This document shows positions 18,610 to 35,030 of a stretch of 64,000 nucleotides of DNA, in pieces. The translations under genes and the position numbers were made by a program. The DNA is taken from the NCBI RefSeq assembly GCF_055900595.2, contig NZ_CM148325.1; one strand, written 5' to 3'. Every line of letters begins with the position of its first letter. Positions within the stretch are counted from its first letter, which is position 1. The notes under the pieces are model-generated. The model did not search any database, had not been told where the DNA came from, and worked only from the letters and a program-made list of their open reading frames with translations.

Positions 18610-20493
18610 ATGGATCCACGGCTACTGGAATACTACAACCGCGAACTGAGCTATCTGCGGGAAACGGGAGCCGAATTTGCCGCCCGTCATCCTAAAGTCG
18701 CCGCCAGACTGGGTATGCAGGGAACGGATATTGCCGATCCGTATGTGGAGCGTATGGTCGAAGCCTTTAGCTTCCTGACCGCCCGCACGCAGCTAAAAAT
18801 TGACGCTGAATTCCCCCGTTTCACCCAGCGCCTGCTGGAAGTAGTCAGCCCCAATTACGTCACCCCCACGCCCTCAATGAGCGTGGCGCAGCTCCATCCC
18901 GACCCGGAAGAAGGCGATCTGGCGAAGGGATTTACCGTCCCGCGCGACACGGCCTTTTTTTCCGCCATTCCGGAAGGCGAAAGTACCGCCTGTCAGTTTC
19001 GCAGCAGCCAGGATGTAACGCTGTGGCCGCTCGCCATCGAAGAGGTGCGACTGACCGCCGCACCGCCGGATATGCCTGCCCTGCACCGCTCTCTGCCAGC
19101 CAACATTCACGTCGCTGGTGCGCTGCGTATTACCCTGCGCACCTTTGGTGAACTGACATTCAGTCAGCTTGCAGGGCTGGACAGGCTTCCGTTTTATCTC
19201 TGTGGCGAGGAGCGCACGGCCTCACACCTGTTCGAACTGCTACATACCAGCGCCATCGCGACCCTGGCTGGCATTCCGGGGCATTTTGACGGTGCGCTGG
19301 ATGTGAATCTGCAACATCCCGTTATGTACGAAGGCCTGGAGCTGGATCAGGGGCTGCTGCCGCTGGCGTGGAACGTGTTTCACGGTCATAACCTGCTGCA
19401 TGAATATTTTGCCTGTCCAGAACGCTTTTATTTTTTCACCCCGACAGGCCTGTCTGCCGGGTTACAGAAAATTGACGGTGGCGTGGCGGAGATTGTTATC
19501 CTGCTGAACCGCCTGCCGCCGGACTGGCTGATCCACCAGACAAACGCGGCACAGTTCAGCCTGTTCTGTACCCCGATTATCAACCTGTTTCCCCGCGTCA
19601 CCGCACGGATCGATGTCACGCACAGCACGACGGAACAGCATCTGGTGGTAGACAGAACCCATCCACTGGATTATGAGGTGTTCTCGGTCCAGGAAGTGGA
19701 AGGGCTGGAAACCGACACCACACGGAAGATGGCCTTTCGCCCGCTCTACCACACCCGCAATAATGATGAAGGCAATCACGGACGTTATTTTTCCCTGCGC
19801 CGGGAGCCCCGCCGCTTATCAGAAAACGCCCGCCGTTACGGCACCCGTACCCCCTATACGGGCTCGGAAGTGTTCCTGTCGCTGGTTGACCAATATGAAG
19901 CGCCGTACCCAGAAAATCTGCGCCACATCACCATCACGGCCATGGTCACTAACCGCGATCTGCCCTGTCTTATTGCACGTAATGGCCGGGACGATCTAAC
20001 CGTGGATGCGGCAATCCCAGTGGCGGGCGTAGGGCTTATCCGCCCGCCGCGCTCGCCGCAGCCCCCGCTGGCTGAACGTGAGATGGCCTGGCGTTTGATC
20101 CGCCAGTTATCCTTTAATTATCTGCCGCTGGCCGATCTGGATCACCGTACCGGCGGCCAGGCGCTGCGCGATCTGCTTAACCTGTTTATTCCGGCGCATG
20201 ACAGCCCACAGTCGCGCCAGGTACGCAGTCTGATTGGCTGCAACACCACCCCGGTCACCCGCCGTCTGCCCGGTACCGGGCTGCTGGTCTATGGACGCGG
20301 CGTCAGTTGTGAACTGACGGTGGATGAGGAAGGGTTCTCCGGTATCAGTCCGTATCTGTTCGGCCTGGTGCTGGAGCACTATATCGCCCGTCATGTTTCC
20401 ATTAATACCTTCTCGCAGATGACGCTGCACAGCATGCAGCGCGGCAAAATTATGACCTGGCCTGTCAGGGCGGGACAGCGGGGAAGCGTATGA
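18610..20493 (+). CDS. tssF: T6SS baseplate protein TssF
   Basis: 627-aa ORF between tssE and tssG, overlapping the tssG start; size and position of TssF. Confidence 0.85.
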   Translation: MDPRLLEYYNRELSYLRETGAEFAARHPKVAARLGMQGTDIADPYVERMVEAFSFLTARTQLKIDAEFPRFTQRLLEVVSPNYVTPTPSMSVAQLHPDPEEGDLAKGFTVPRDTAFFSAIPEGESTACQFRSSQDVTLWPLAIEEVRLTAAPPDMPALHRSLPANIHVAGALRITLRTFGELTFSQLAGLDRLPFYLCGEERTASHLFELLHTSAIATLAGIPGHFDGALDVNLQHPVMYEGLELDQGLLPLAWNVFHGHNLLHEYFACPERFYFFTPTGLSAGLQKIDGGVAEIVILLNRLPPDWLIHQTNAAQFSLFCTPIINLFPRVTARIDVTHSTTEQHLVVDRTHPLDYEVFSVQEVEGLETDTTRKMAFRPLYHTRNNDEGNHGRYFSLRREPRRLSENARRYGTRTPYTGSEVFLSLVDQYEAPYPENLRHITITAMVTNRDLPCLIARNGRDDLTVDAAIPVAGVGLIRPPRSPQPPLAEREMAWRLIRQLSFNYLPLADLDHRTGGQALRDLLNLFIPAHDSPQSRQVRSLIGCNTTPVTRRLPGTGLLVYGRGVSCELTVDEEGFSGISPYLFGLVLEHYIARHVSINTFSQMTLHSMQRGKIMTWPVRAGQRGSV

Positions 20494-21495: not shown

Positions 21496-22542
21496 ATGGA
21501 TACATCCCTGTCTGACCCTGTTTCGGCGGAATGCCCCTGCGGCCCGGATCTGGAGTACGATCCCGAGTACCTGCTGCTGTTCACCCGCGCCGCACCGCGT
21601 GAAGAAGCGCAATATGGCGATTTTGTCAGTACGCCGGAAATCATTAACTGGGCGGAGCTTGAGCGGGATGCCCGCCGCCTGCTGACGCGCAGTAAAGATA
21701 TCCGTATTCTGGTTGTCCTGCTGCGCTGCCGTATCCAGCAGGCCGGTGCCAGGGGACTGGCGGAGGTACTCACGCTGCTGGAAACGTTGTGCGCCACGTA
21801 CCCGGACGCCATCCACCCGCAACTGCTCGCGACTGAAGATATCACCGCCGAAGAGGCGGCTGTGGCACGCAGTAACGCGCTGGCGGCGTTGCTGGACCAC
21901 GAAGGCGTAATGGCGGATATCCGGGGTATCACGCTGTCAAATAATGTCGCCATGCGCCTTCAGGTACGGGATGTGGAGCGTTCGCTGTCTGCATCACGCC
22001 CGGCGGATGCGCTGGCACCGGAATCGGTACGCCAGCAACTGGCCGACCTGGAAGCGCGCGGCGCACTGCCACTTGACGCCTTTCGCCAGGCCGCAGAGAC
22101 CACTGAGCGGCTGCAACGCCATGCGCGTGAAACGCTGAATGAACAGGCACCGAACCTATCCCGTCTGACACAATTGCTGGCTCTGTTGCCGGGAGCGATA
22201 CGGACCACCACGCCGGAGATCCTGCCACAACCAGTGGTTGAACAGCCGGAGAGCACCGCCATCGTTCATACTGAACAGATATCGTCAGAGCAGATTGCGC
22301 TACCGGTGCATATCGCGGAGGAAATATCACCGATGTCCGGCGCAGAACCCAGGCAGATCCGCGACCGGAACGACGCGCTGGAACGCCTGCGTGTCATCCG
22401 TCGCTGGTTTGAGCACAGCGAACCGAGCAGCCCGACCATTCCTTTGCTGCGCCAGGCAGAGCGCCTGGTCGGAAAACGCTTCTCGGAGGTTATAAATGAA
22501 ATTCCAGTAGAACTGCTGGAAAAATGGGATGCGCTGGAGTAA
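21496..22542 (+). CDS. tssA: T6SS protein TssA (ImpA N-terminal domain), short form
   Basis: 348-aa ORF with an ImpA_N-like signature at the N-terminus (CPCGPDLEYDPEY...EAQYGDF...INWAELERDARRLLTRSKDIRILVVLL). Confidence 0.8.
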   Translation: MDTSLSDPVSAECPCGPDLEYDPEYLLLFTRAAPREEAQYGDFVSTPEIINWAELERDARRLLTRSKDIRILVVLLRCRIQQAGARGLAEVLTLLETLCATYPDAIHPQLLATEDITAEEAAVARSNALAALLDHEGVMADIRGITLSNNVAMRLQVRDVERSLSASRPADALAPESVRQQLADLEARGALPLDAFRQAAETTERLQRHARETLNEQAPNLSRLTQLLALLPGAIRTTTPEILPQPVVEQPESTAIVHTEQISSEQIALPVHIAEEISPMSGAEPRQIRDRNDALERLRVIRRWFEHSEPSSPTIPLLRQAERLVGKRFSEVINEIPVELLEKWDALE

Positions 22543-22548
22543 CAGAAG

Positions 22549-22580
22549 TGGCCAGAATTTATAATGTCTGGCCATTTTTT
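22549..22580 (+). terminator. Intrinsic terminator after tssA
   Basis: Stem TGGCCAGA...TCTGGCCA followed by TTTTTT, 7 nt after the tssA stop codon. Confidence 0.7.
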
Positions 22581-22638
22581 AAATCATATTCGTTTTACTT
22601 CCTGAGTGAAAAAATTCTCGCTTCACCAAAACGACGAA

Positions 22639-22665
22639 AGCCCGAATCATTACTGATTCGGGCTT
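22639..22665 (-). terminator. Hairpin downstream of aspV (putative terminator)
   Basis: Inverted repeat AAGCCCGAATC...GATTCGGGCTT just 3' of the tRNA on the minus strand; the U-tract is interrupted. Confidence 0.4.
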
Positions 22666-22674
22666 TCTGAATAT

Positions 22675-22751
22675 TGGCGGAACGGACGGGACTCGAACCC
22701 GCGACCCCCTGCGTGACAGGCAGGTATTCTAACCGACTGAACTACCGCTCC
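22675..22751 (-). tRNA. aspV: tRNA-Asp (GUC)
   Basis: 77-nt sequence; reverse complement matches E. coli tRNA-Asp as recalled (GGAGCGGTAGTTCAGTCGGTTAGAATACCTGCCTGTCACGCAGGGGGTCGCGGGTTCGAGTCCCGTCCGTTCCGCCA). Confidence 0.97.
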
Positions 22752-22883
22752 GCGTTGTGTTCCGTTGGGAACGAGGCGAATATTACGGATTGCCTCACCC
22801 TTCGTCAACGGTTTTTCTCATCTTTTGAATCGTTTGCTGCAAAAATCGCCCAAGTCGCTATTTTTAGCGCCTTTTACAGGTAT

Positions 22884-23615
22884 TTATGCCCGCCAGAGGC
22901 AGCTTCCGCCCTTTTTCTGCACCAGATCGAGACGGGCTTCATGTGCCGCAAGCTCTTCATCTGTCGCAAAAACAACGCGTAACTTACTTGCCTGACGCAC
23001 AATGCGCTGAATTGTTGTTTCACCTTGTTGCTGCTGTGTCTCTCCTTCCATCGCAAAAGCCATCGACGTTTGACCACCGGTCATCGCCAGATAAACTTCC
23101 GCAAGGATCTGGGCATCGAGTAATGCCCCGTGCAGCGTTCGTTTACTGTTATCTATTTCGTAGCGGGCACATAACGCATCGAGGCTGTTACGTTTACCGG
23201 GAAACATTTTCCTCGCCACCGCAAGGCTATCGGTGACCTTACAGAAGGTATTGGTCTTCGGAATATCGCGCTTAAGTAACGAGAACTCGTAGTCCATAAA
23301 GCCGATATCGAACGCTGCGTTATGGATCACCAACTCAGCGCCGCGAATATAGTCCATGAACTCATCGGCTACCTCGGCAAACGTGGGCTTATCGAGCAAA
23401 AACTCATCGGCAATACCATGTACGCCAAAGGCTTCAGGATCCACCAGCCGATCGGGTTTGAGATAAACATGGAAGTTATTGCCCGTCAGACGACGGTTCA
23501 CTACTTCAACGGCACCAATCTCAATGATCTTGTGGCCTTCATAGTGCGCACCAATCTGGTTCATGCCGGTGGTTTCGGTATCGAGAACGATCTGGCGTGT
23601 AATTGCAGTGCTCAT
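22884..23615 (-). CDS. dnaQ: DNA polymerase III epsilon subunit (3'-5' proofreading exonuclease)
   Basis: ORF 22884-23624 trimmed to the internal ATG giving [20 protein letters not shown]... (243 aa), recognised as E. coli DnaQ. Confidence 0.95.
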
Positions 23616-23679
23616 AGCGGTCATTTATGTCAGACTTGTCGTTTTACAGTTCGATTCAATTACAGGAAGTCTACCAGAG

Positions 23680-24147
23680 ATGCTTAAACAGGTAGAAATT
23701 TTCACCGATGGTTCGTGTCTGGGTAATCCTGGACCTGGTGGTTACGGCGCTATTTTACGCTATCGCGGACGCGAGAAAACCTTTAGCGCTGGCTACACCC
23801 GCACCACCAACAACCGTATGGAGTTGATGGCCGCTATTGTCGCGCTGGAGGCGTTAAAAGAACATTGCGAAGTCATTTTGAGTACCGACAGCCAGTATGT
23901 CCGCCAGGGTATCACCCAGTGGATCCATAACTGGAAAAAACGTGGCTGGAAAACAGCAGACAAAAAACCAGTAAAAAATGTCGATCTCTGGCAACGTCTT
24001 GATGCTGCATTGGGGCAGCATCAAATCAAATGGGAATGGGTTAAAGGCCATGCCGGACACCCGGAAAACGAACGCTGTGATGAACTGGCTCGTGCTGCGG
24101 CGATGAATCCCACACTGGAAGATACAGGCTATCAAGTCGAAGTTTAA
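23680..24147 (+). CDS. rnhA: Ribonuclease HI
   Basis: Internal start gives [23 protein letters not shown]... (155 aa), recognised as E. coli RNase HI; divergent from dnaQ as in E. coli. Confidence 0.95.
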
Positions 24148-24866
24148 GCCTGTGGTTTACGACATTGCCGGGTGGCACCAACCGCCTGGCGAATTCGTGG
24201 CTTGTTTTTACTCTGTTTCATCGGATTTAGCGTTAAAGGAATAGTCCGTTTCCGGGCAACGATAAGTTGTAAGCAACCAAGCGCAGGAATATGCGCATTC
24301 AATAGTTTTCCACCGTGTTTGTTCCACGGGAGAACGTGGAAACGGCTGGCGTGCAGCACTTCAAAATTCAACAAAGAGAGCCAGTCCAGTTGCCGCATCA
24401 GAGTAAACATCCGGCTGTTATAGGGCGAGTTTTTTCGCAATACCGGCACAAGTTTGCGTAATCCCATTAAACTGATGGGATTGAAGCCGCTAATGACCAA
24501 CCAACCATCATCAATCAATACCCGATCGGCTTCACGTAATAAACGATGCGGATCGGTGCACCACGGCAATGTATGTGCCAATAGACAAACATCAACGGAT
24601 TTATCGGCAAAAGGAAGATGAAGTGGGTCCGCCTGTACCTGGACGGGCATTCCTTGCGCAGAAACATTCACTTGATGAGAAACCGCGCACGCTTCGCAAT
24701 TGATTTCTGCGCTTAAATTGCCAATCTTAAGCAGATGAAAACCATACATTTTAGTGAACCACGGGTTGAGCTGGCGCTCCAGCGCTTTGCGATAAAGCTC
24801 TCCCCAGGGCAAATCGCCCCAGCGATCAGGAGCCACGACAGTTTGAGGGACTCTTGCCGGTTTCAT
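24144..24866 (-). CDS. yafS: Putative SAM-dependent methyltransferase YafS
   Basis: ORF 24144-24884 trimmed to [14 protein letters not shown]... (240 aa); convergent with rnhA, overlapping stops. Confidence 0.85.
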
Positions 24867-24896
24867 CACAACCTTCCGTTTCACACTGAGAGGTAA

Positions 24897-25655
<759 letters not shown>

Positions 25656-25726
25656 TAAAACTTTCTTGTCATCGGCTCCGTTCGCCGTTATGATCGGTCG
25701 TCTTTTAAGCAACTATTGACACACAC

Positions 25727-27085
25727 ATGAAGGCAAAAGCGATATTACTCGCCTCTGTCCTGCTCGTGGGTTGCCAGAGTACCGGCAACGTTCAACAGCA
25801 CGCACAGAGCCTTTCTGCAGCTGGTCAAGGGGAAGCAGCAAAGTTTACAAGTCAGGCACGATGGATGGACGATGGGACGTCTATCGCGCCAGATGGTGAC
25901 TTGTGGGCTTTCATTGGCGACGAGCTAAAGATGGGAATTCCGGAAAATGACCGGATTCGCGAACAGAAACAGAAATATTTACGCAATAAGAGCTATCTCC
26001 ACGATGTAACTTTACGGGCAGAGCCGTATATGTACTGGATAGCCGGGCAAGTTAAAAAACGTAACATGCCTATGGAACTGGTACTACTACCCATAGTGGA
26101 GAGCGCTTTTGATCCTCACGCAACGTCTGGCGCCAATGCCGCAGGCATCTGGCAGATCATTCCGAGCACGGGGCGCAATTATGGTTTGAAACAGACCCGT
26201 AATTATGACGCGCGTCGCGATGTTGTTGCTTCAACAACTGCCGCGCTGAACATGATGCAGCGTCTGAACAAGATGTTTGACGGCGACTGGCTTCTGACCG
26301 TAGCGGCTTATAACAGCGGCGAAGGTCGGGTCATGAAGGCAATTAAAACGAACAAAGCGCGTGGGAAATCCACGGACTTCTGGTCATTACCATTGCCGCA
26401 GGAAACGAAGCAATACGTGCCTAAAATGCTGGCATTGAGTGATATTCTCAAAAACAGCAAGCGTTATGGTGTACGTCTGCCAACGACTGATGAAAGCCGT
26501 GCTCTGGCGCGTGTGCACCTGAGCAGCCCGGTTGAAATGGCGAAGGTTGCAGATATGGCGGGGATTTCCGTCAGCAAGCTGAAGACATTCAACGCTGGCG
26601 TGAAAGGCTCCACGCTGGGCGCAAGTGGCCCGCAGTACGTGATGGTGCCAAAGAAGCATGCAGATCAACTGCGTGAATCTCTGGCTTCTGGCGAAATTGC
26701 TGCCGTACAGTCGACACTGGTTGCCGACAATACGCCGCTTAACAGCCGTGTTTACACCGTACGCTCTGGCGACACGCTTTCAAGCATCGCTTCACGTCTC
26801 GGCGTAAGCACCAAAGATTTGCAGCAGTGGAACAAACTGCGGGGATCTAAGCTGAAAGCAGGCCAAAGTTTGACGATTGGCGCAGGTAGTAGCGCACAGC
26901 GGTTGGCAAACAACAGCGATAGCATTACGTATCGTGTACGCAAAGGCGATTCGCTTTCAAGCATTGCTAAACGCCACGGCGTGAACATCAAAGATGTGAT
27001 GCGCTGGAACAGCGACACTGCGAATCTGCAACCAGGCGATAAGCTGACGTTGTTTGTGAAAAACAACAACATGCCAGATTCCTGA
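25727..27085 (+). CDS. mltD: Membrane-bound lytic murein transglycosylase D (lipoprotein, LysM repeats)
   Basis: 452-aa ORF with lipoprotein signal peptide ending LLVGC and two C-terminal LysM-like repeats (YTVRSGDTLSSIASRLGV, YRVRKGDSLSSIAKRHGV). Confidence 0.93.
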   Translation: MKAKAILLASVLLVGCQSTGNVQQHAQSLSAAGQGEAAKFTSQARWMDDGTSIAPDGDLWAFIGDELKMGIPENDRIREQKQKYLRNKSYLHDVTLRAEPYMYWIAGQVKKRNMPMELVLLPIVESAFDPHATSGANAAGIWQIIPSTGRNYGLKQTRNYDARRDVVASTTAALNMMQRLNKMFDGDWLLTVAAYNSGEGRVMKAIKTNKARGKSTDFWSLPLPQETKQYVPKMLALSDILKNSKRYGVRLPTTDESRALARVHLSSPVEMAKVADMAGISVSKLKTFNAGVKGSTLGASGPQYVMVPKKHADQLRESLASGEIAAVQSTLVADNTPLNSRVYTVRSGDTLSSIASRLGVSTKDLQQWNKLRGSKLKAGQSLTIGAGSSAQRLANNSDSITYRVRKGDSLSSIAKRHGVNIKDVMRWNSDTANLQPGDKLTLFVKNNNMPDS

Positions 27086-27095
27086 CAAACCAGAT

Positions 27096-27131
27096 AATAA
27101 AAAGGCACCGATTCCCCCGGTGCCTTTTTTA
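27096..27131. terminator. Bidirectional intrinsic terminator between convergent mltD and yafE
   Basis: AAAAAGGCACCG...CGGTGCCTTTTTT: a stem flanked by an A-tract and a T-tract. Confidence 0.75.
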
Positions 27132-27132
27132 T

Positions 27133-27903
27133 TTATGCTGCTTTATGTGCTTCTACCATGATGATATCACTGGTGAAAGAGCCATCATTCTGCAAGGCAA
27201 AATACGTTTTCACCTCTGTCGATGCGCTCTGTTGGTAAACGCGAATAGCGTCTACTAACGTTTCTGGCGTACGCATTCTCGCGACCCATGAAGAAAATTC
27301 CAGCGGTAACTTATCTGTAATTAAATTATCAACTATCAGATTGGCTTCATTGATTAACGCCAACCACTCACCGCAGGCGTAATTACGCACATGTGATGTA
27401 TCGCGTAACGCTTCTACCGTCTGTAACCAGATATCACGTACCGGATGTCCTGGCGACATGACGTCCATCACAATCAGCTTACCGCCAGGTTTCAATATCC
27501 GATTCACTTCACGCAGTGCTGCACCAACATCATGCCAGTGATGGGCAGAATAACGGCTGATAACAATATCAAATGCGTTATCGGCAAATGGCAGACTTTC
27601 GGCATATCCCTGGCGGGTGGTGATATTTTTCAGTTGCCGGGCTTCGGCAGCTTGTGCCACGACATCCAGCATATGGGCAGATAAGTCATACGCCACCACC
27701 GTGCTCACGTTTTGCGCAGCGACAAAGCTGGCATGCCCTGCTCCGCAGCCCATATCAAGTACACTTGCATCAGGATAATCAGCCAGACGCTCCGCCAGGC
27801 GCTGTAAATCTCGTCCGGATGCATGTACGGTACTGGTCAGATATTCGCTGGCTTGAGAGCTAAACTGCTTTTCTACGTGGTCATGGTGGGATTGTGTTGT
27901 CAT
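27133..27903 (-). CDS. yafE: Putative SAM-dependent methyltransferase (YafE-like)
   Basis: 256-aa ORF with methyltransferase motif I (VLDMGCGAGH); conserved neighbourhood. Annotated start in reference genomes may differ. Confidence 0.8.
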   Translation of the reverse strand: MTTQSHHDHVEKQFSSQASEYLTSTVHASGRDLQRLAERLADYPDASVLDMGCGAGHASFVAAQNVSTVVAYDLSAHMLDVVAQAAEARQLKNITTRQGYAESLPFADNAFDIVISRYSAHHWHDVGAALREVNRILKPGGKLIVMDVMSPGHPVRDIWLQTVEALRDTSHVRNYACGEWLALINEANLIVDNLITDKLPLEFSSWVARMRTPETLVDAIRVYQQSASTEVKTYFALQNDGSFTSDIIMVEAHKAA

Positions 27904-27980
27904 TGCGCTGTCCTTTTGTTATTTGAGTATAAAAGGGCAGCGCCAAACGTTGGTCTGCCCTGTGGCAGACCTGACATACC

Positions 27981-28832
<852 letters not shown>

Positions 28833-29021
28833 CTACTGTTATAGGGATTTTAGCTCACTCTTTCAACGAGCAATTGTATATTGTTATGTAAGCAAGTGCT
28901 TACACCGGTCAGAAATTTGCTCATTATTGAGAACATTAAATCGGATGACATATCACGCATCCCGATGGTTTAATGACAAATAAATTCAAAATATCTCATC
29001 TATTTTGCAACAGGAGCAAAA

Positions 29022-29936
29022 ATGAAAGCCACGTCGGAAGAACTCGCCATTTTTGTTTCGGTCGTCGAAAGCGGCAGCTTTAGCCGGGCAGCGGAACAAT
29101 TAGGGCAAGCAAACTCAGCGGTAAGCCGGGCGGTGAAAAAGCTGGAGATGAAACTTGGCGTTAGCCTGCTTAATCGGACCACGCGGCAACTTAGCCTGAC
29201 GGAAGAAGGCGAGCGTTATTTTCGTCGCGTACAGTCAATTTTGCAGGAGATGGCAGCGGCAGAATCAGAAATTATGGAGACGCGTAATACGCCGCGTGGA
29301 CTGTTACGGATCGATGCTGCAACCCCTGTGGTGCTGCACTTCCTGATGCCGTTGATTAAGCCTTTCCGTGAACGCTATCCGGAAGTCACTTTATCGCTAG
29401 TCTCCTCCGAAACGATTATTAATTTGATTGAACGAAAAGTGGATGTCGCGATTCGCGCTGGTACGTTAACAGATTCCAGCTTACGAGCCAGGCCATTGTT
29501 TAACAGTTATCGAAAAATTATCGCCTCCCCCGATTATATTTCCCGCTACGGGAAGCCAGAAACGATCGACGATTTAAAGCAACATGTTTGCCTGGGATTC
29601 ACTGAACCCGCTTCCCTCAATACCTGGCCGATAGCCTGTAGTGATGGACAATTACATGAGGTAAAGTACGGTTTGTCATCCAATAGTGGGGAAACACTGA
29701 AACAGCTTTGCCTGAGTGGCAACGGGATTGCGTGTTTGTCCGACTACATGATCGACAGAGAAATCGCTCGCGGAGAATTGGTGGAGTTAATGGCAGATAA
29801 AGTGTTGCCAGTGGAAATGCCATTCAGTGCAGTCTATTACAGCGACCGTGCGGTAAGTACGCGCATCCGGGCTTTTATCGATTTCCTTAGCGAGCATGTA
29901 AAAACAGCTCCCAGAGGAGCTGTCAGAGAGGCTTAA
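29022..29936 (+). CDS. yafC: LysR-family transcriptional regulator YafC
   Basis: 304-aa ORF with an N-terminal helix-turn-helix typical of LysR regulators ([36 protein letters not shown]). Confidence 0.9.
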
Positions 29937-30736
29937 TCCCATTCAGGAGCCAGACCTGCCGGGCTAACCAGGCGGTCGTTGCAATCCAGTGCGGCGATCG
30001 CTTTTTTATCTTCGGCATCAAACTGTAAATTTTGTGCCTTAAGATTACTCTCCAGGTTTTCACGTTTAGTAGAAGAAGGAATTACTGAGTAACCTTCCCC
30101 CATAGCCCACGCCAGAATCACTTGTGCCGGAGTCGCATTGTGTTTAGCTGCGATACGAGCAATAACCTCATTTTTCAGTGCATTACCATAAGCCAGCGTC
30201 ATATAGGAAGTAATATGGATGCCGTGCTGTTTAGCCCAATCAACCACTTTACGGTTTTGCAGATAAGGAGAGAGTTCAATCTGGTTAGTAGCGATGTTTT
30301 CAGCGCCAACAGCAGCAATCGCTTTTTCCATCAATGGGATCGTGAAGTTGGAAATACCGATCTCACGCGTCAGACCTTGTTTTTTCGCTTCCAGCAGCGC
30401 CTGCATAAACTCTTCAACAGAGACTTCATCGTTTGGTGACGGCCAGTGGATTAGCGTCAGATCAACATAATCGGTACGCAATTTTTGCAGGCTCTCTTTC
30501 AGACTTGGGGTCAATTTATCTTTGCTGAGATTTTCAATCCAGATTTTAGTGGTGATGTAGAGTTCATTACGTGGCACGCCACTTTCTGCAATCGCCTGAC
30601 CTACTGCGGCTTCGTTATCATAGATTTGTGCGGTATCAATTGCGCGATAACCAAGTTCAAGCGCCGTTTTCACAGATGAAATAACAACGTCGTCTTTCAG
30701 ACGAAAAGTACCTAAACCAAATGCAGGAATAGCCAT
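29933..30736 (-). CDS. dkgB: 2,5-diketo-D-gluconate reductase B (aldo-keto reductase)
   Basis: 267-aa ORF recognised as E. coli DkgB ([42 protein letters not shown]...); convergent with yafC. Confidence 0.95.
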
Positions 30737-30859
30737 AATATGCCTCTTTTAATGCTATGTTCGTTAACTGAGATGATTATGGACTTTAGACTGTTGCGGA
30801 AAAAGGGCATAAAATGCAGAGGATTTTTGCAATTATGGCAACAATAAACATACAGACGA

Positions 30860-31567
30860 AAATAAATATCCTCCGGCATAGCCGGAGGTTTTTCAAATGC
30901 GCCTGTAAGGCTCTGTTACCAGCCGCGCCCTAACAGGCGCATACGATCTGACATTTGCATTCAACTTCGTTACTTACGGCCCGTAAACGGGCTGCCCGGA
31001 TATGGAATCGATAACTGCTCCCCCATTTTATCCTCTTCAAGCTGGTGCTTTATGTAGTCCTGTATCTTCGCCGTGTTCTTACCCACCGTATCGACATAGT
31101 ACCCTCGGCACCAGAACTCCCTGTTTCTGTATTTGAATTTCAAATCCCCAAACTGCTCGTAAAGCATCAGACTGCTTTTCCCTTTCAGATATCCCATAAA
31201 GCCGGATACGCTCATTTTGGGTGGGATTTCCACAAGCATATGGATATGATCTGCGCAGCACTCTGCTTCCAGAATCCGTACGCTTTTCCACTCACACAGC
31301 TTTCTCAAAATACTGCCTATCGCCCTACGCTTCTCTCCGTAAAACGCCAGTCTTCGGTATTTCGGCGCAAAAACTATGTGATATTTACAGTTCCAGCGGG
31401 TGTGCGCTAAGCTCTTTTCGTCCCCCATTGGGACCCCCTTTTGATTTCTTGTTTGACACTTGCAGTTGCCAGACCGCAAGGTGTTTTAACAAATCAAAAG
31501 GGGTTTTAATAACTGGCTCAAAGCTGAAAGCTTTCCGGAACCCCCAGCCTAGCCGGGGGTTTTCTGT
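30860..31567 (-). mobile_element. IS200-type insertion sequence (IS200/IS605 family); boundaries approximate
   Basis: Contains an intact IS200-like tnpA; hairpin AACCCCCAGCCTAGCCGGGGGTT near 31541-31563 and palindromes at 30870-30945 flank it. Exact ends not determinable by eye. Confidence 0.6.
30970..31428 (-). CDS. tnpA: IS200 transposase TnpA (Y1 HuH tyrosine transposase)
   Basis: ORF 30970-31479 trimmed to MGDEKSLAHTRWNCKYHIVFAPKYRR... (152 aa); HuH motif HIHML and catalytic Tyr region YYVDTVG. Confidence 0.9.
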   Translation of the reverse strand: MGDEKSLAHTRWNCKYHIVFAPKYRRLAFYGEKRRAIGSILRKLCEWKSVRILEAECCADHIHMLVEIPPKMSVSGFMGYLKGKSSLMLYEQFGDLKFKYRNREFWCRGYYVDTVGKNTAKIQDYIKHQLEEDKMGEQLSIPYPGSPFTGRK

Positions 31568-31571
31568 GCAC

Positions 31572-31598
31572 AAAAAAACCTCGAGCGTTAACTCGAGG
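31572..31598 (-). terminator. rrnH operon terminator downstream of aspU
   Basis: CCTCGAGCGTTAACTCGAGG hairpin with a U-tract on the minus strand (AAAAAAA on plus), directly 3' of tRNA-Asp. Confidence 0.8.
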
Positions 31599-31610
31599 CT
31601 TCTTAATAAG

Positions 31611-31687
31611 TGGCGGAACGGACGGGACTCGAACCCGCGACCCCCTGCGTGACAGGCAGGTATTCTAACCGACTGAACTACCGCTCC
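31611..31687 (-). tRNA. aspU: tRNA-Asp (GUC), distal gene of rrnH operon
   Basis: 77 nt, identical to the 22675-22751 copy. Confidence 0.97.
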
Positions 31688-31739
31688 ACCGAATTCTTTT
31701 ACAACCACCGGTTTTATGACCGGCTTACTGCTTAATTTG

Positions 31740-31859
31740 ATGCCTGGCAGTTCCCTACTCTCGCATGGGGAGACCCCACACTACCATCGGCGCTACGGCG
31801 TTTCACTTCTGAGTTCGGCATGGGGTCAGGTGGGACCACCGCGCTAAGGCCGCCAGGCA
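31740..31859 (-). rRNA. rrfH: 5S ribosomal RNA
   Basis: 120 nt; reverse complement matches E. coli 5S rRNA (TGCCTGGCGGC...GGAACTGCCAGGCAT) apart from about one position relative to my recollection of rrfB. Confidence 0.95.
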
Positions 31860-34857: not shown

Positions 34858-35030
34858 TCACAACCCGAAGATGTTTCACTTCTGATTGCGAAAATTTGAG
34901 AGACTCACGAACAACTTTCGTTGTTCAGTGTTTCAATTTTCAGCTTGATCCAGATTTTTAAAGAGCAAAACTTCGCAGTGAACCTTTGCAGGTACACTCT
35001 GAAGTATTTTTTATTTAATCACTACAGAGA

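What the first reader, a model, noticed from the sequence alone, without database searches (positions are those of the whole stretch)
30860..31600. IS200-type element with intact tnpA inserted between the rrnH terminator/aspU and dkgB
An apparently intact 152-aa IS200 transposase gene lies in the normally short spacer between aspU and dkgB, directly abutting the rrnH terminator hairpin. IS200 is absent from K-12 at this position, so this is a strain-specific insertion. It separates dkgB from its native upstream region and may alter dkgB expression.
Basis: partly seen in the sequence, partly recalled or inferred. Interest (0 to 1): 0.5.

Follow-up and report, generated by a model that had tools for sequence, protein, structure and literature searches.

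The report
IS200 copy in a terminator T-tract
This is an ordinary, intact copy of the small mobile element IS200 that sits in the run of T's of the transcription terminator after the rrnH/aspU genes, which is the kind of site IS200-type elements almost always occupy, and it probably has little effect on the neighbouring gene dkgB.

Summary
A 711-bp (±2) IS200-group element lies at window 30861-31571 on the minus strand. It has an intact 152-aa Y1/HUH transposase gene (30970-31428) and the published IS200 left-end anatomy.

It sits inside the T-tract of the aspU/rrnH terminator: GAGG-T7 | IS | TT-CGTCTG, where K-12 and a near-identical relative have an uninterrupted T8.

The insertion is rare. 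Only 10 of 5,426 complete E. coli genomes carry an IS here. Eight hold this subtype at 100% identity. Two hold IS200C, which differs at 28 of 709 positions, at the same junction, so the site was hit independently.

The abutment to the terminator is not a coincidence. All 21 distinct E. coli sites I sampled, and about 80-95% of 116 sites from other species, have the left end directly 3' of a GC-rich hairpin plus a T-rich tail. The background rate is 3-6%. The element's top strand is the lagging-strand template, as expected for single-strand transposition.

All 122 nt between the T-tract and the dkgB start stay attached to dkgB. The host terminator keeps 7 T's, and the element adds hairpins at both of its ends.

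Verdict: an already known kind of element, already annotated in RefSeq. Interest is low.

The parts
30861..31571 (-). IS200-group insertion sequence, 711 bp: GTGCACAG...GGAGGATATTTATT. The ends are uncertain by about 2 nt because both junctions lie in T runs.
   Evidence: It is absent from the K-12 and EC42405 empty sites. The 709+TT length comes from the K-12 yccU/hspQ empty site compared with the occupied L024. It differs at 0-2 of 709 positions from nine of the ten copies of this subtype sampled at other loci, and at 7 from the tenth, L015.
30970..31428 (-). tnpA, a 152-aa Y1 (HUH) transposase. The HUH motif is H61-I62-H63, and the putative catalytic Tyr is Y125 in QDYIKHQ.
   Evidence: NF033573 at 144 bits. 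Pfam Y1_Tnp is on record for the identical protein. PDB relatives include 2ec2, 2a6m (IS608) and 2xm3 (ISDra2). It is 148/152 identical to IS200C TnpA.
31539..31561 (-). Left-end hairpin (element nt 11-33), AACCCCCGGCTAGGCTGGGGGTT. This corresponds to the published IS200 bidirectional terminator (nt 12-34) and is the presumed TnpA binding hairpin. It is preceded by GAAAA (31562-31566), the putative guide.
   Evidence: Folds. Rfam STnc490 model positions 1-23. Published anatomy in PMC4513863.
31435..31503 (-). [quoted passage not shown] This region is also the template of the antisense RNA art200.
   Evidence: RNA fold of -61.6 kcal/mol, z = -4.55. The Rfam RF01405 STnc490 hit spans 31438-31561, full length, 143.9 bits against a gathering score of 56. 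The published range is nt 69-138.
30870..30888 (-). Right-end hairpin CCTCCGGCTATGCCGGAGG, preceded by GAAAAA and followed by ATATTTATT, which is the element's 3' end. It looks like a terminator on both strands.
   Evidence: It is conserved with compensatory changes (CCTCCGG/CCGGAGG, CCACCGG/CCGGTGG, CCCCCAGG/CCGGGGG) in other genera.
31572..31601 (-). Host aspU/rrnH intrinsic terminator: stem-loop CCTCGAG-TTAACG-CTCGAGG plus the 7 T's that stayed on the left side of the insertion. This is the target structure.
   Evidence: Identical in K-12, where it carries T8. ssDNA fold.
30859..30860 (-). The remaining T's of the split T-tract on the right side of the element. There is one more T than a T8 ancestor would give.
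   Evidence: The window has T7 + 709 + T4, against T8 in the empty site. NMBU-W10C18 has T7 + 709 + T3.
30737..30858 (-). The 122-nt native dkgB upstream spacer, uninterrupted and still adjacent to dkgB.
   Evidence: Alignment to K-12 and EC42405.
31611..31687 (-). aspU (tRNA-Asp GUC), the distal gene of rrnH.
   Evidence: ARAGORN and Rfam. Synteny with K-12 rrlH-rrfH-aspU-dkgB-yafC.
29933..30736 (-). dkgB (267 aa), intact, downstream of tnpA and in the same orientation.

Best explanation
The feature is an intact IS200-group insertion sequence of the IS200/IS605 family, an isoform about 96% identical to IS200C. It inserted, without a target duplication, into the T-tract of the intrinsic terminator that ends rrnH/aspU.

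It carries only tnpA, a Y1 HUH single-strand transposase, and subterminal hairpins. These are a left-end hairpin that doubles as a terminator, an SD-sequestering 5'UTR stem-loop with the art200 region, and a right-end hairpin.

The proposed mechanism has four steps:
1. The element moves as single-stranded DNA ('peel and paste').
2. Its top strand is integrated into the lagging-strand template.
3. Integration occurs 3' of a ...TT that lies about 5-8 nt after a GC-rich hairpin, which is the shape of an intrinsic terminator on that strand.
4. The A-run immediately 5' of the left-end hairpin probably acts as the guide that pairs with the T-tract. The hairpin is probably part of what is recognised.

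Shown here: the element's identity, intactness, exact position and strand, and the recurrence of terminator-type sites. Inferred by analogy with IS608/ISDra2: the single-strand pathway, guide pairing and hairpin recognition.

The consequence for the host is probably near-neutral. The aspU terminator keeps 7 T's, dkgB keeps its whole 122-nt upstream spacer, and the element is bracketed by hairpins that limit transcription in and out.
For: Identity:
- NF033573 at 144 bits.
- PDB TnpA relatives with the HUH and Tyr regions aligned.
- Rfam STnc490 full length at 143.9 bits.
- Folds reproduce the published nt 12-34 and 69-138 structures.
- PGAP annotates the identical locus as an IS200/IS605 transposase.

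Position:
- The empty sites in K-12 and in EC42405, which has 1 mismatch in 789 nt of flank, read GAGG-T8-CGTCTG.
- No duplication beyond the T ambiguity was seen. The K-12 yccU/hspQ site reads ATTTGTT|CAGGG, against ATTTGTT[709]TTCAGGG when occupied.

Target rule:
- All 21 distinct E. coli sites have a hairpin plus a T-rich tail ending in TT next to the left end.
- A strict perfect-stem detector scores 17 of 22 observed sites. The background in this window is 1.3% of TT positions, 2.3% of T4 positions and 6% of T6 positions.
- Across other genera, 92 of 116 distinct flanks pass the strict detector, against 4.7% and 2.7% in the background.
- (G/T)AAA(A) lies 5' of the left-end hairpin in essentially all of about 120 copies listed, while the preceding 8-10 nt vary by lineage. 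GAAAAA also precedes the right-end hairpin in the enterobacterial and Vibrio copies.

Hot spot:
- Two subtypes that differ at 28 of 709 positions each occupy this same T-tract, in strains with different flank alleles.
- The window's copy differs at 0-2 positions from nine of ten copies of its subtype elsewhere. The NMBU-W10C18 copy differs at 0-5 positions from IS200C copies elsewhere.
- L006 and L010 sit in one terminator with junctions 1 T apart.
- IS200C also follows the trpT and aspV terminators.

Strand:
- GC skew of the + strand is negative across the whole window, so the minus strand, which is the element's top strand, is the lagging-strand template.
- Seven copies in one genome flip orientation between 2.06 and 2.46 Mb of the assembly. 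Going by my own knowledge of the K-12 gene map, this fits the two replichores.
- The family's lagging-strand preference is stated in PMC5027513.
Against: - No transposition, cleavage or transcript data exist for this copy.
- The exact ends cannot be fixed to better than about 2 nt because both junctions are T runs. The window has one more T than T8 plus the element's TT would predict.
- The association with hairpins could arise from T-run targeting followed by loss of harmful insertions, rather than from recognition of the hairpin.
- My background rates include coding DNA, where insertions would not survive, so the enrichment is overstated to an unknown degree.
- The sites came from exact-protein look-ups and an exact left-end pattern, not from a census.
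- Many cross-species hits are MAG contigs whose binning I did not verify.
- IS200 is known to transpose very rarely (PMC4513863).
Confidence: 0.85

Rival explanations
1. The element targets only a short T-rich sequence, through guide pairing as in IS608. The constant neighbouring hairpin is then a survivorship effect. Insertions just after terminators are harmless and shielded from read-through, so only they persist.
For: - A conserved A-run lies 5' of the left-end hairpin in all lineages and 5' of the right-end hairpin in the enterobacterial and Vibrio copies.
- Every E. coli junction is preceded by TT.
- A preprint reads terminator enrichment upstream of IS200/IS605 elements as a persistence niche (10.1101/2025.07.22.666184).
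- IS608 needs no hairpin in its target (family mechanism, PMC3201880 abstract).
Against: - Only 2.7-6% of T-rich positions in the background have such a hairpin, against 77-100% of insertion sites.
- No E. coli copy in 21 sites sits at a non-terminator intergenic T-run.
- In the E. coli sites the junction lies close to the stem end even when the tail is not a pure T-run, for example GGACATTATT| and GGGGATTTGTT|. In the cross-species set, 88 of 92 detected stems end 0-7 nt before the junction.
Confidence: 0.3
2. There was a single ancient insertion at aspU-dkgB that was inherited vertically or moved by recombination. On this view the two subtypes seen at this site diverged in place, and the site is not a hot spot.
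For: The left junction is the same in all 10 occupied genomes.
Against: - The window's copy differs at 0-2 of 709 positions from nine of the ten copies of its own subtype sampled at unrelated loci. The NMBU-W10C18 copy differs at 0-5 positions from IS200C copies elsewhere. The two subtypes differ from each other at 28 positions.
- The right junctions differ (T4 against T3).
- The flanks belong to different alleles.
- A genome with the window's rare flank allele has an empty T8 site.
- 5,416 of 5,426 genomes are empty at this site.
Confidence: 0.05
3. The insertion matters for regulation. Either it changes dkgB expression, by read-out from tnpA or by blocking rrnH read-through, or it supplies IS200-derived regulatory RNAs (art200, or the tnpA 5'UTR sRNA) that act on host genes.
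For: - tnpA and dkgB have the same orientation, 124 nt apart.
- In Salmonella the tnpA 5'UTR is processed into an sRNA that affects host gene expression (PMC5435999).
- The corresponding region is fully conserved here.
Against: - The full native dkgB spacer is retained.
- The right-end hairpin with its T-rich tail looks like a terminator.
- The tnpA promoter is reported to be intrinsically weak.
- The closest genome carries 17 matches to the element, so this one copy adds little to any trans-acting RNA pool.
- No promoter-like site was found on the minus strand in 30600-31750.
Confidence: 0.1

Closest known systems
IS200C / IS200 of E. coli and Salmonella (IS200/IS605 family, IS200 group)
   Same: - About 710 bp, with tnpA as the only gene.
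- 148/152 aa and 681/709 nt identical to copies that PGAP names IS200C.
- The left-end terminator hairpin, the SD-sequestering stem-loop and the art200/STnc490 region are at the published positions.
   Different: It is a minority subtype. Only 207 of 2,980 matching records have a best match at 99% identity or more, against 1,720 in the 95-99% band, the band where the listed IS200C copies fall. PGAP gives it only the family name. There is no structural difference.
IS1541 of Yersinia pestis/pseudotuberculosis
   Same: It is a close IS200 relative that also expresses STnc490 (PMC4513863). From my memory of Odaert et al. 1998 (J Bacteriol 180:178; cited but not readable here), 8 of 14 IS1541 sites carried stem-loops resembling rho-independent terminators, and these were proposed as hot spots. 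An IS1541 copy also disrupts the pheL-pheA attenuator region (PMC3082878).
   Different: It has a different host and a much higher copy number. The association seen here is tighter (21 of 21 sites) and is resolved to the nucleotide: the junction follows ...TT in the T-tract.
IS608 (H. pylori) and ISDra2 (D. radiodurans), the mechanistic models of the family
   Same: - A homologous Y1 HUH TnpA (E 3e-19 and 5e-16).
- Subterminal hairpins at both ends and no inverted repeats.
- Insertion with the left end next to a fixed short sequence and no duplication.
- A preference for the lagging-strand template.
   Different: - IS608 and ISDra2 also carry tnpB. This element does not.
- Their targets are plain tetra- or pentanucleotides (TTAC, TTGAT) with no known need for a hairpin. 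Here the target is a T-run placed just after a hairpin.
- The cleavage sites of IS200 have not, to my knowledge, been mapped biochemically.
Bacterial class C group II introns
   Same: From my own knowledge, these mobile elements home to positions just after intrinsic-terminator stem-loops.
   Different: They are unrelated in mechanism: a ribozyme with a reverse transcriptase, against a HUH single-strand DNA transposase.
RayT / REP-associated tyrosine transposases
   Same: They are distant homologues of TnpA (NF047646 at 30 bits, below its cutoff of 80) that act on extragenic hairpins.
   Different: They are domesticated single-copy genes flanked by REP sequences. This protein fails the RayT model cutoff.

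Membership tests
IS200/IS605 family, IS200 group | Encodes a Y1 (single-tyrosine) HUH transposase, TnpA | tested here: met
   NF033573 at 144.4 bits against a cutoff of 55. Pfam PF01797 is on record for the identical protein. PDB TnpA relatives were found.
IS200/IS605 family, IS200 group | HUH motif and catalytic tyrosine are present and the ORF is uninterrupted | tested here: met
   H61-I-H63 aligns with DHIH of 2ec2/2f4f, and Y125 (QDYIKHQ) aligns with KKYIEEQ. The ORF is 152 aa with no frameshift. Catalytic activity itself was not tested.
IS200/IS605 family, IS200 group | tnpA is the only gene, with no tnpB, and the element is about 700-710 bp | tested here: met
   The element is 711 bp between the empty-site junctions and holds one real ORF. 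The published length of IS200 is 707 bp.
IS200/IS605 family, IS200 group | No terminal inverted repeats; different subterminal hairpins at the left and right ends | tested here: met
   The left-end hairpin is at 31539-31561 and the right-end hairpin at 30870-30888, with different sequences. The right-end stem shows compensatory changes across genera.
IS200/IS605 family, IS200 group | Inserts without a target-site duplication, with the left end 3' of a short fixed sequence | tested here: inconclusive
   The data fit no duplication if the element ends in ...ATT. A 2-bp TT duplication cannot be excluded because every junction is ...TT|...TT. All 21 E. coli junctions follow TT.
IS200/IS605 family, IS200 group | The active (top) strand lies on the lagging-strand template | tested here: met
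   The + strand has negative GC skew throughout. tnpA has the same orientation as rrnH. Seven of seven copies in one assembly follow the replichores, an inference that uses my own knowledge of the K-12 map.
IS200 proper (regulatory anatomy) | Left-end terminator hairpin (nt 12-34), SD-sequestering stem-loop (nt 69-138) and the art200/STnc490 region | tested here: met
   Rfam RF01405 matches full length at 143.9 bits. The fold gives nt 11-33 and 69-137, which agree with PMC4513863. The Rfam hit is on the tnpA-sense strand, so it shows that the region is conserved, not which strand is transcribed.
IS200C isoform (ISfinder convention of at least 95% nucleotide identity) | At least 95% nucleotide identity to the reference IS200C | tested here: inconclusive
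   It is 96.1% identical to copies that PGAP labels IS200C. The ISfinder reference sequence itself was not available.
IS200/IS605 family, IS200 group | Excision and integration through a single-stranded circular intermediate | not testable with these tools
   This needs biochemical or genetic assays.

The most novel reading that the evidence does not exclude
IS200-group transposases may choose their targets by structure. On this reading they recognise an intrinsic-terminator hairpin plus its T-tract on the lagging-strand template. That shape mimics the element's own right end, which is a hairpin followed by ATATTTATT. The conserved A-run beside the left-end hairpin would act as the guide.

This would be a targeting mode beyond the plain tetra- or pentanucleotide pairing established for IS608 and ISDra2. 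It would explain how a nearly silent element spreads through many bacterial groups without damaging genes.
Probability: 0.45. Interest if true: 0.45.

Novelty: already known. Interest (0 to 1): 0.2.

Why it matters
For this window it matters little. It is one more copy of a well-characterised, nearly dormant insertion sequence, at a site that leaves the neighbouring genes and the host terminator intact. It is already annotated in eight RefSeq genomes. Its practical value is as a lineage marker, since it is present in 8 of 5,426 complete genomes.

The wider pattern that came out of checking it is that the left end always lies directly after a terminator hairpin and T-tract, in E. coli and in many other genera. 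This is a clean, testable target rule for the IS200 group. It has been noted only partially in the literature, and it could be settled with simple oligonucleotide assays.

Tried and rejected
1. The MAFFT three-way alignment misplaced the gap across the T-tract. I fixed the junctions by direct string comparison instead.
2. I considered that the upstream hairpin might be part of the mobile element. I rejected this because the hairpin differs at every site and stays behind in the empty sites (K-12 aspU and yccU terminators).
3. I considered that the recurrence next to tRNA-Asp genes (aspU, aspT-trpT, aspV) means tRNA-Asp targeting. I rejected this as an artefact of ascertainment, because my query contained tRNA-Asp. 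Sites found through the protein follow many unrelated genes.
4. I looked for a sequence motif in the right flanks. Three flanks resemble GYGYCTG, and in the window the flank CGTCTGTA can pair with the internal TACAGGCG. There is no consensus across 21 sites, so I treat this as chance.
5. Literature searches for an explicit description of IS200 insertion into terminator T-tracts found only a statistical note in a preprint and indirect mentions. Odaert et al. 1998 and Siguier et al. 2014 were not held.
6. I assumed that genome Z0117EC0005, which is 100% identical over 1.2 kb, was the source strain. This was wrong. It matches the window only from 21799 to 30140 and differs beyond aspV.
7. The weak Rfam hit Ysr202 (31.9 bits against a gathering score of 315) over the right end, and the Xist hit, were ignored as being below threshold.
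Full report
**1. What is in the sequence**

On the minus strand the window reads: 23S rRNA, 5S rRNA (31742-31857), tRNA-Asp (31611-31687), a stem-loop CCTCGAG-TTAACG-CTCGAGG (31579-31598), seven T's (31572-31578), then GTGCACAGAAAACCCCCGGCTAGGCTGGGGG....

A 152-aa ORF starts at the ATG at 31428 and stops at 30970.

After the ORF comes CCTCCGGCTATGCCGGAGG-ATATTTATTTT. Then follow CGTCTG... and, 124 nt further on, the ATG of dkgB (29933-30736).

The synteny rrlH-rrfH-aspU-dkgB-yafC is that of K-12, so the operon is rrnH. The only correction is that 31572-31600 is host terminator, not part of the element.

**2. Identity**

- The protein scores 144 bits on NCBIfam NF033573, IS200/IS605 family transposase, against a cutoff of 55.
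- The identical protein has Pfam Y1_Tnp on record.
- It matches solved TnpA structures, including IS608 (2a6m/2vhg) and ISDra2 (2xm3), at E 1e-16 to 1e-23.
- In those alignments H61-I-H63 aligns with the HUH motif and Y125 (QDYIKHQ) aligns with the tyrosine helix.
- It is 148/152 identical to the protein that PGAP names IS200C transposase.

The untranslated left end matches Rfam RF01405 (STnc490) over the full model at 143.9 bits, against a gathering score of 56. Folding gives a hairpin at element nt 11-33 and a long stem-loop at nt 69-137 that buries the Shine-Dalgarno sequence.

These agree with the published IS200 anatomy: a terminator at nt 12-34, a stem-loop at nt 69-138, and art200 antisense to the 5'UTR (PMC4513863). 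The Rfam hit lies on the tnpA-sense strand, so it shows that the region is conserved and says nothing about which strand is transcribed here.

**3. Exact insertion point**

K-12 MG1655 reads ...CTCGAGG-T8-CGTCTGTAT... with nothing in between.

I rebuilt the empty site from the window's own flanks and searched 5,426 complete E. coli genomes. Strain EC42405 matched in one piece with a single mismatch in 789 nt. It shares the window's rare flank allele and also reads GAGG-T8-CGTCTG.

The window reads GAGG-T7 | 709 nt | T4-CGTCTG.

The T's make the ends ambiguous, so I used a site without a pure T-run. The K-12 yccU/hspQ spacer reads GGGGATTTGTT-CAGGG. The occupied version reads GGGGATTTGTT[709]TT-CAGGG.

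The element is therefore the 709-nt core plus TT, 711 bp in all (GTGCAC...ATTTATT), with no duplication. A 2-bp TT duplication cannot formally be excluded.

In window coordinates this gives 30861-31571. The window has one more T than T8+TT predicts, which I put down to homopolymer length variation.

**4. How common and how old**

Only 10 of 5,426 genomes carry any insert between aspU and dkgB. Eight are 100% identical to the window over 1,201 nt. Two (NMBU-W10C18 and CFSAN018748) carry IS200C at 95.8-95.9% identity.

- The two subtypes differ at 28 of 709 positions.
- The window's copy differs at only 0-2 positions from nine of the ten copies of its own subtype sampled at other loci, and at 7 from the tenth (L015).
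- The NMBU copy differs at 0-5 positions from IS200C copies elsewhere.
- The flanks belong to different alleles, and the right junctions differ (T4 against T3).

The same T-tract was therefore hit at least twice independently.

IS200-type DNA is present in 2,644 of 5,426 genomes. Only 207 of the 2,980 matching records have a best match at 99% identity or more, which marks the window's subtype. The nearest genome carries 17 matches.

The near-identity of dispersed copies, together with the empty site in a near-identical background, argues for recent movement. Precise excision in EC42405 cannot be excluded.

**5. Why it abuts a terminator**

I collected further copies in two ways: by exact-protein look-up for both subtypes and from the hits.

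All 21 distinct upstream flanks end in a GC-rich hairpin (-13 to -26 kcal/mol over 45 nt) followed by a T-rich tail that ends in TT at the junction. In nearly every case the upstream gene has the same orientation and ends 40-90 nt before the element.

A deliberately strict detector, requiring a perfect stem of at least 6 bp, scores 17 of 22 of these sites. The background in this window is 1.3% of TT positions, 2.3% of T4 positions and 6.0% of T6 positions.

The hairpins differ at every site and stay behind in the empty sites, so they are host terminators and not part of the element.

In one terminator (fdnI/yddM) two genomes have junctions one T apart, T8|TT against T7|TTT. This again points to repeated use of the same site.

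The apparent preference for tRNA-Asp terminators (aspU, trpT after aspT, aspV) arises because my first query contained tRNA-Asp.

**6. Generality**

The hits included:
- Citrobacter, Brenneria, Dickeya, Serratia, Yersinia, Xenorhabdus, Vibrio, Shewanella and Oxalobacter;
- MAGs labelled Mailhella/Desulfovibrio, Elusimicrobiales, Saccharibacteria and Bacillota. I did not verify the binning of these MAGs.

Of 116 distinct flanks, 92 pass a detector requiring a perfect stem of at least 5 bp. The background is 4.7% of TT[GA] positions and 2.7% of T-rich ones. Most of the misses I looked at show imperfect stems, though a few (for example L113) show none.

The first 8-10 nt of the element vary by lineage, but (G/T)AAA(A) lies immediately 5' of the left-end hairpin in essentially all copies. 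In the enterobacterial and Vibrio copies the right end is GAAAAA, then hairpin, then ATAYTTWTT. Its stem shows compensatory changes across genera.

**7. Mechanism**

In IS608 and ISDra2, TnpA binds the subterminal hairpins. A short guide 5' of each hairpin pairs with the cleavage site. The target equals the left cleavage site, and the element moves as a single-stranded circle into the lagging-strand template (abstracts and text).

By analogy, the A-run 5' of the IS200 left-end hairpin would pair with the T-tract. The right end, a hairpin followed by a 9-nt T-rich tail and then the cut, has the same shape as the target, which is a terminator hairpin followed by a 5-8-nt T-tail and then the cut.

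The strand prediction holds here. GC skew of the + strand is negative across the whole window, so the minus strand is the lagging-strand template. That strand carries the element's top strand and the terminator in its hairpin-then-T-run form.

In assembly GCA_011751345.1 the seven copies switch orientation between 2.06 and 2.46 Mb. Using my own knowledge of the K-12 gene map, this corresponds to the two replichores.

What I could not separate is whether the hairpin itself is recognised, or whether only T-runs are targeted and harmful insertions are lost. My background includes coding DNA, so the enrichment is overstated to an unknown degree.

**8. Consequences for the neighbours**

- The aspU/rrnH terminator keeps its stem and seven T's.
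- All 122 nt between the T-tract and the dkgB ATG stay attached to dkgB.
- The left-end hairpin is reported to terminate about 85% of incoming transcripts, and the tnpA promoter is reported to be weak (PMC5435999 and PMC4513863).
- The right-end hairpin with its T-rich tail looks like a terminator on both strands.
- No promoter-like site was found on the minus strand in 30600-31750.

The claim that dkgB is cut off from its native upstream region is therefore not correct. An effect on dkgB is possible but not expected.

**9. Comparison and novelty**

This is IS200, a minority subtype about 96% identical to IS200C, in a typical IS200 site. The same insertion is already annotated in eight RefSeq genomes.

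Terminator-like stem-loops as hot spots were proposed for the Yersinia relative IS1541. I recall this from Odaert et al. 1998, which is cited but was not readable here. A recent preprint reports that terminator-like sequences are most over-represented upstream of IS200/IS605 elements.

What this check adds is nucleotide resolution (the junction follows ...TT, at the 3' end of the T-tract in the E. coli sites), near-universality across genera, and the conserved A-run that could be the guide.

The finding as given is ordinary. The target rule is a tidy and testable side result.

Noticed in passing
window 1-22542, next to tRNA-Asp aspV at 22675-22751 (-): A type VI secretion gene cluster (TssM, TssL, TssK, TssC, TssB, ClpV/TssH, TagK, TssF, TssG, TssA by NCBIfam) fills the region beyond aspV. 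The genome that is 100% identical around the IS (Z0117EC0005) matches the window only from 21799 to 30140 and has just a truncated ImpA-family remnant there. The aspV island is therefore variable within this lineage.
   Followed up: partly
window 20276-20369 (+): ARAGORN calls a 94-nt 'tRNA-His' here. It lies inside the tssF ORF (18610-20493) and Rfam finds no tRNA, so it is most likely a false positive.
   Followed up: partly
L029-L148 (genome-contig scan): The exact 21-nt IS200 left-end hairpin occurs in genomes far outside Enterobacterales (Vibrio, Shewanella, Oxalobacter). It also occurs on many contigs of MAGs labelled Mailhella/Desulfovibrio, Elusimicrobiales, Saccharibacteria and Bacillota. 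Each lineage has its own 8-10-nt left tip. This reflects either very wide horizontal spread with an invariant hairpin, or mis-binned contigs. I did not check which.
   Followed up: partly
L034, L035, L037, L043, L051, L084, L085, L142: In these loci the left-end hairpin is not followed by a recognisable IS200 right end 620-740 nt downstream. They may be longer relatives, rearranged copies, or solo or miniature derivatives.
   Followed up: no
L006 versus L010 (fdnI/yddM terminator, E. coli): The same terminator is occupied in two genomes with junctions one T apart (T8|TT against T7|TTT, same total). This suggests two separate insertion events, or excision followed by re-insertion.
   Followed up: partly
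L004 (rrnC: aspT-trpT terminator) and L005 (aspV terminator): IS200C sits in the T-tract of these two other tRNA-linked terminators in other E. coli strains, in the same orientation as the tRNA. In the window, no second copy of the element's left-end hairpin was found anywhere, so the aspV terminator carries no IS200.
   Followed up: partly
window 30850-30925 (-): As single-stranded DNA, the element-internal TACAGGCG pairs with the host flank CGTCTGTA (8 bp, one G-T pair), enclosing the right-end hairpin. Two other sites have loosely similar flanks (GTGTCTGTA, GTGCCTGCA), but there is no consensus over 21 sites. This is probably chance.
   Followed up: partly
window 34865-34963 (-): Rfam StyR-44 matches (109.9 bits) immediately upstream of the 23S rRNA gene in the rrnH spacer. 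This is an ordinary feature of enterobacterial rrn operons.
   Followed up: no
L028 17464-17961 (Z0117EC0005, beyond its aspV): That genome encodes RayT, a domesticated relative of the IS200 transposase, about 18 kb from its copy of this IS. The corresponding part of the window is replaced by the T6SS cluster, so I did not see rayT in the window itself.
   Followed up: no
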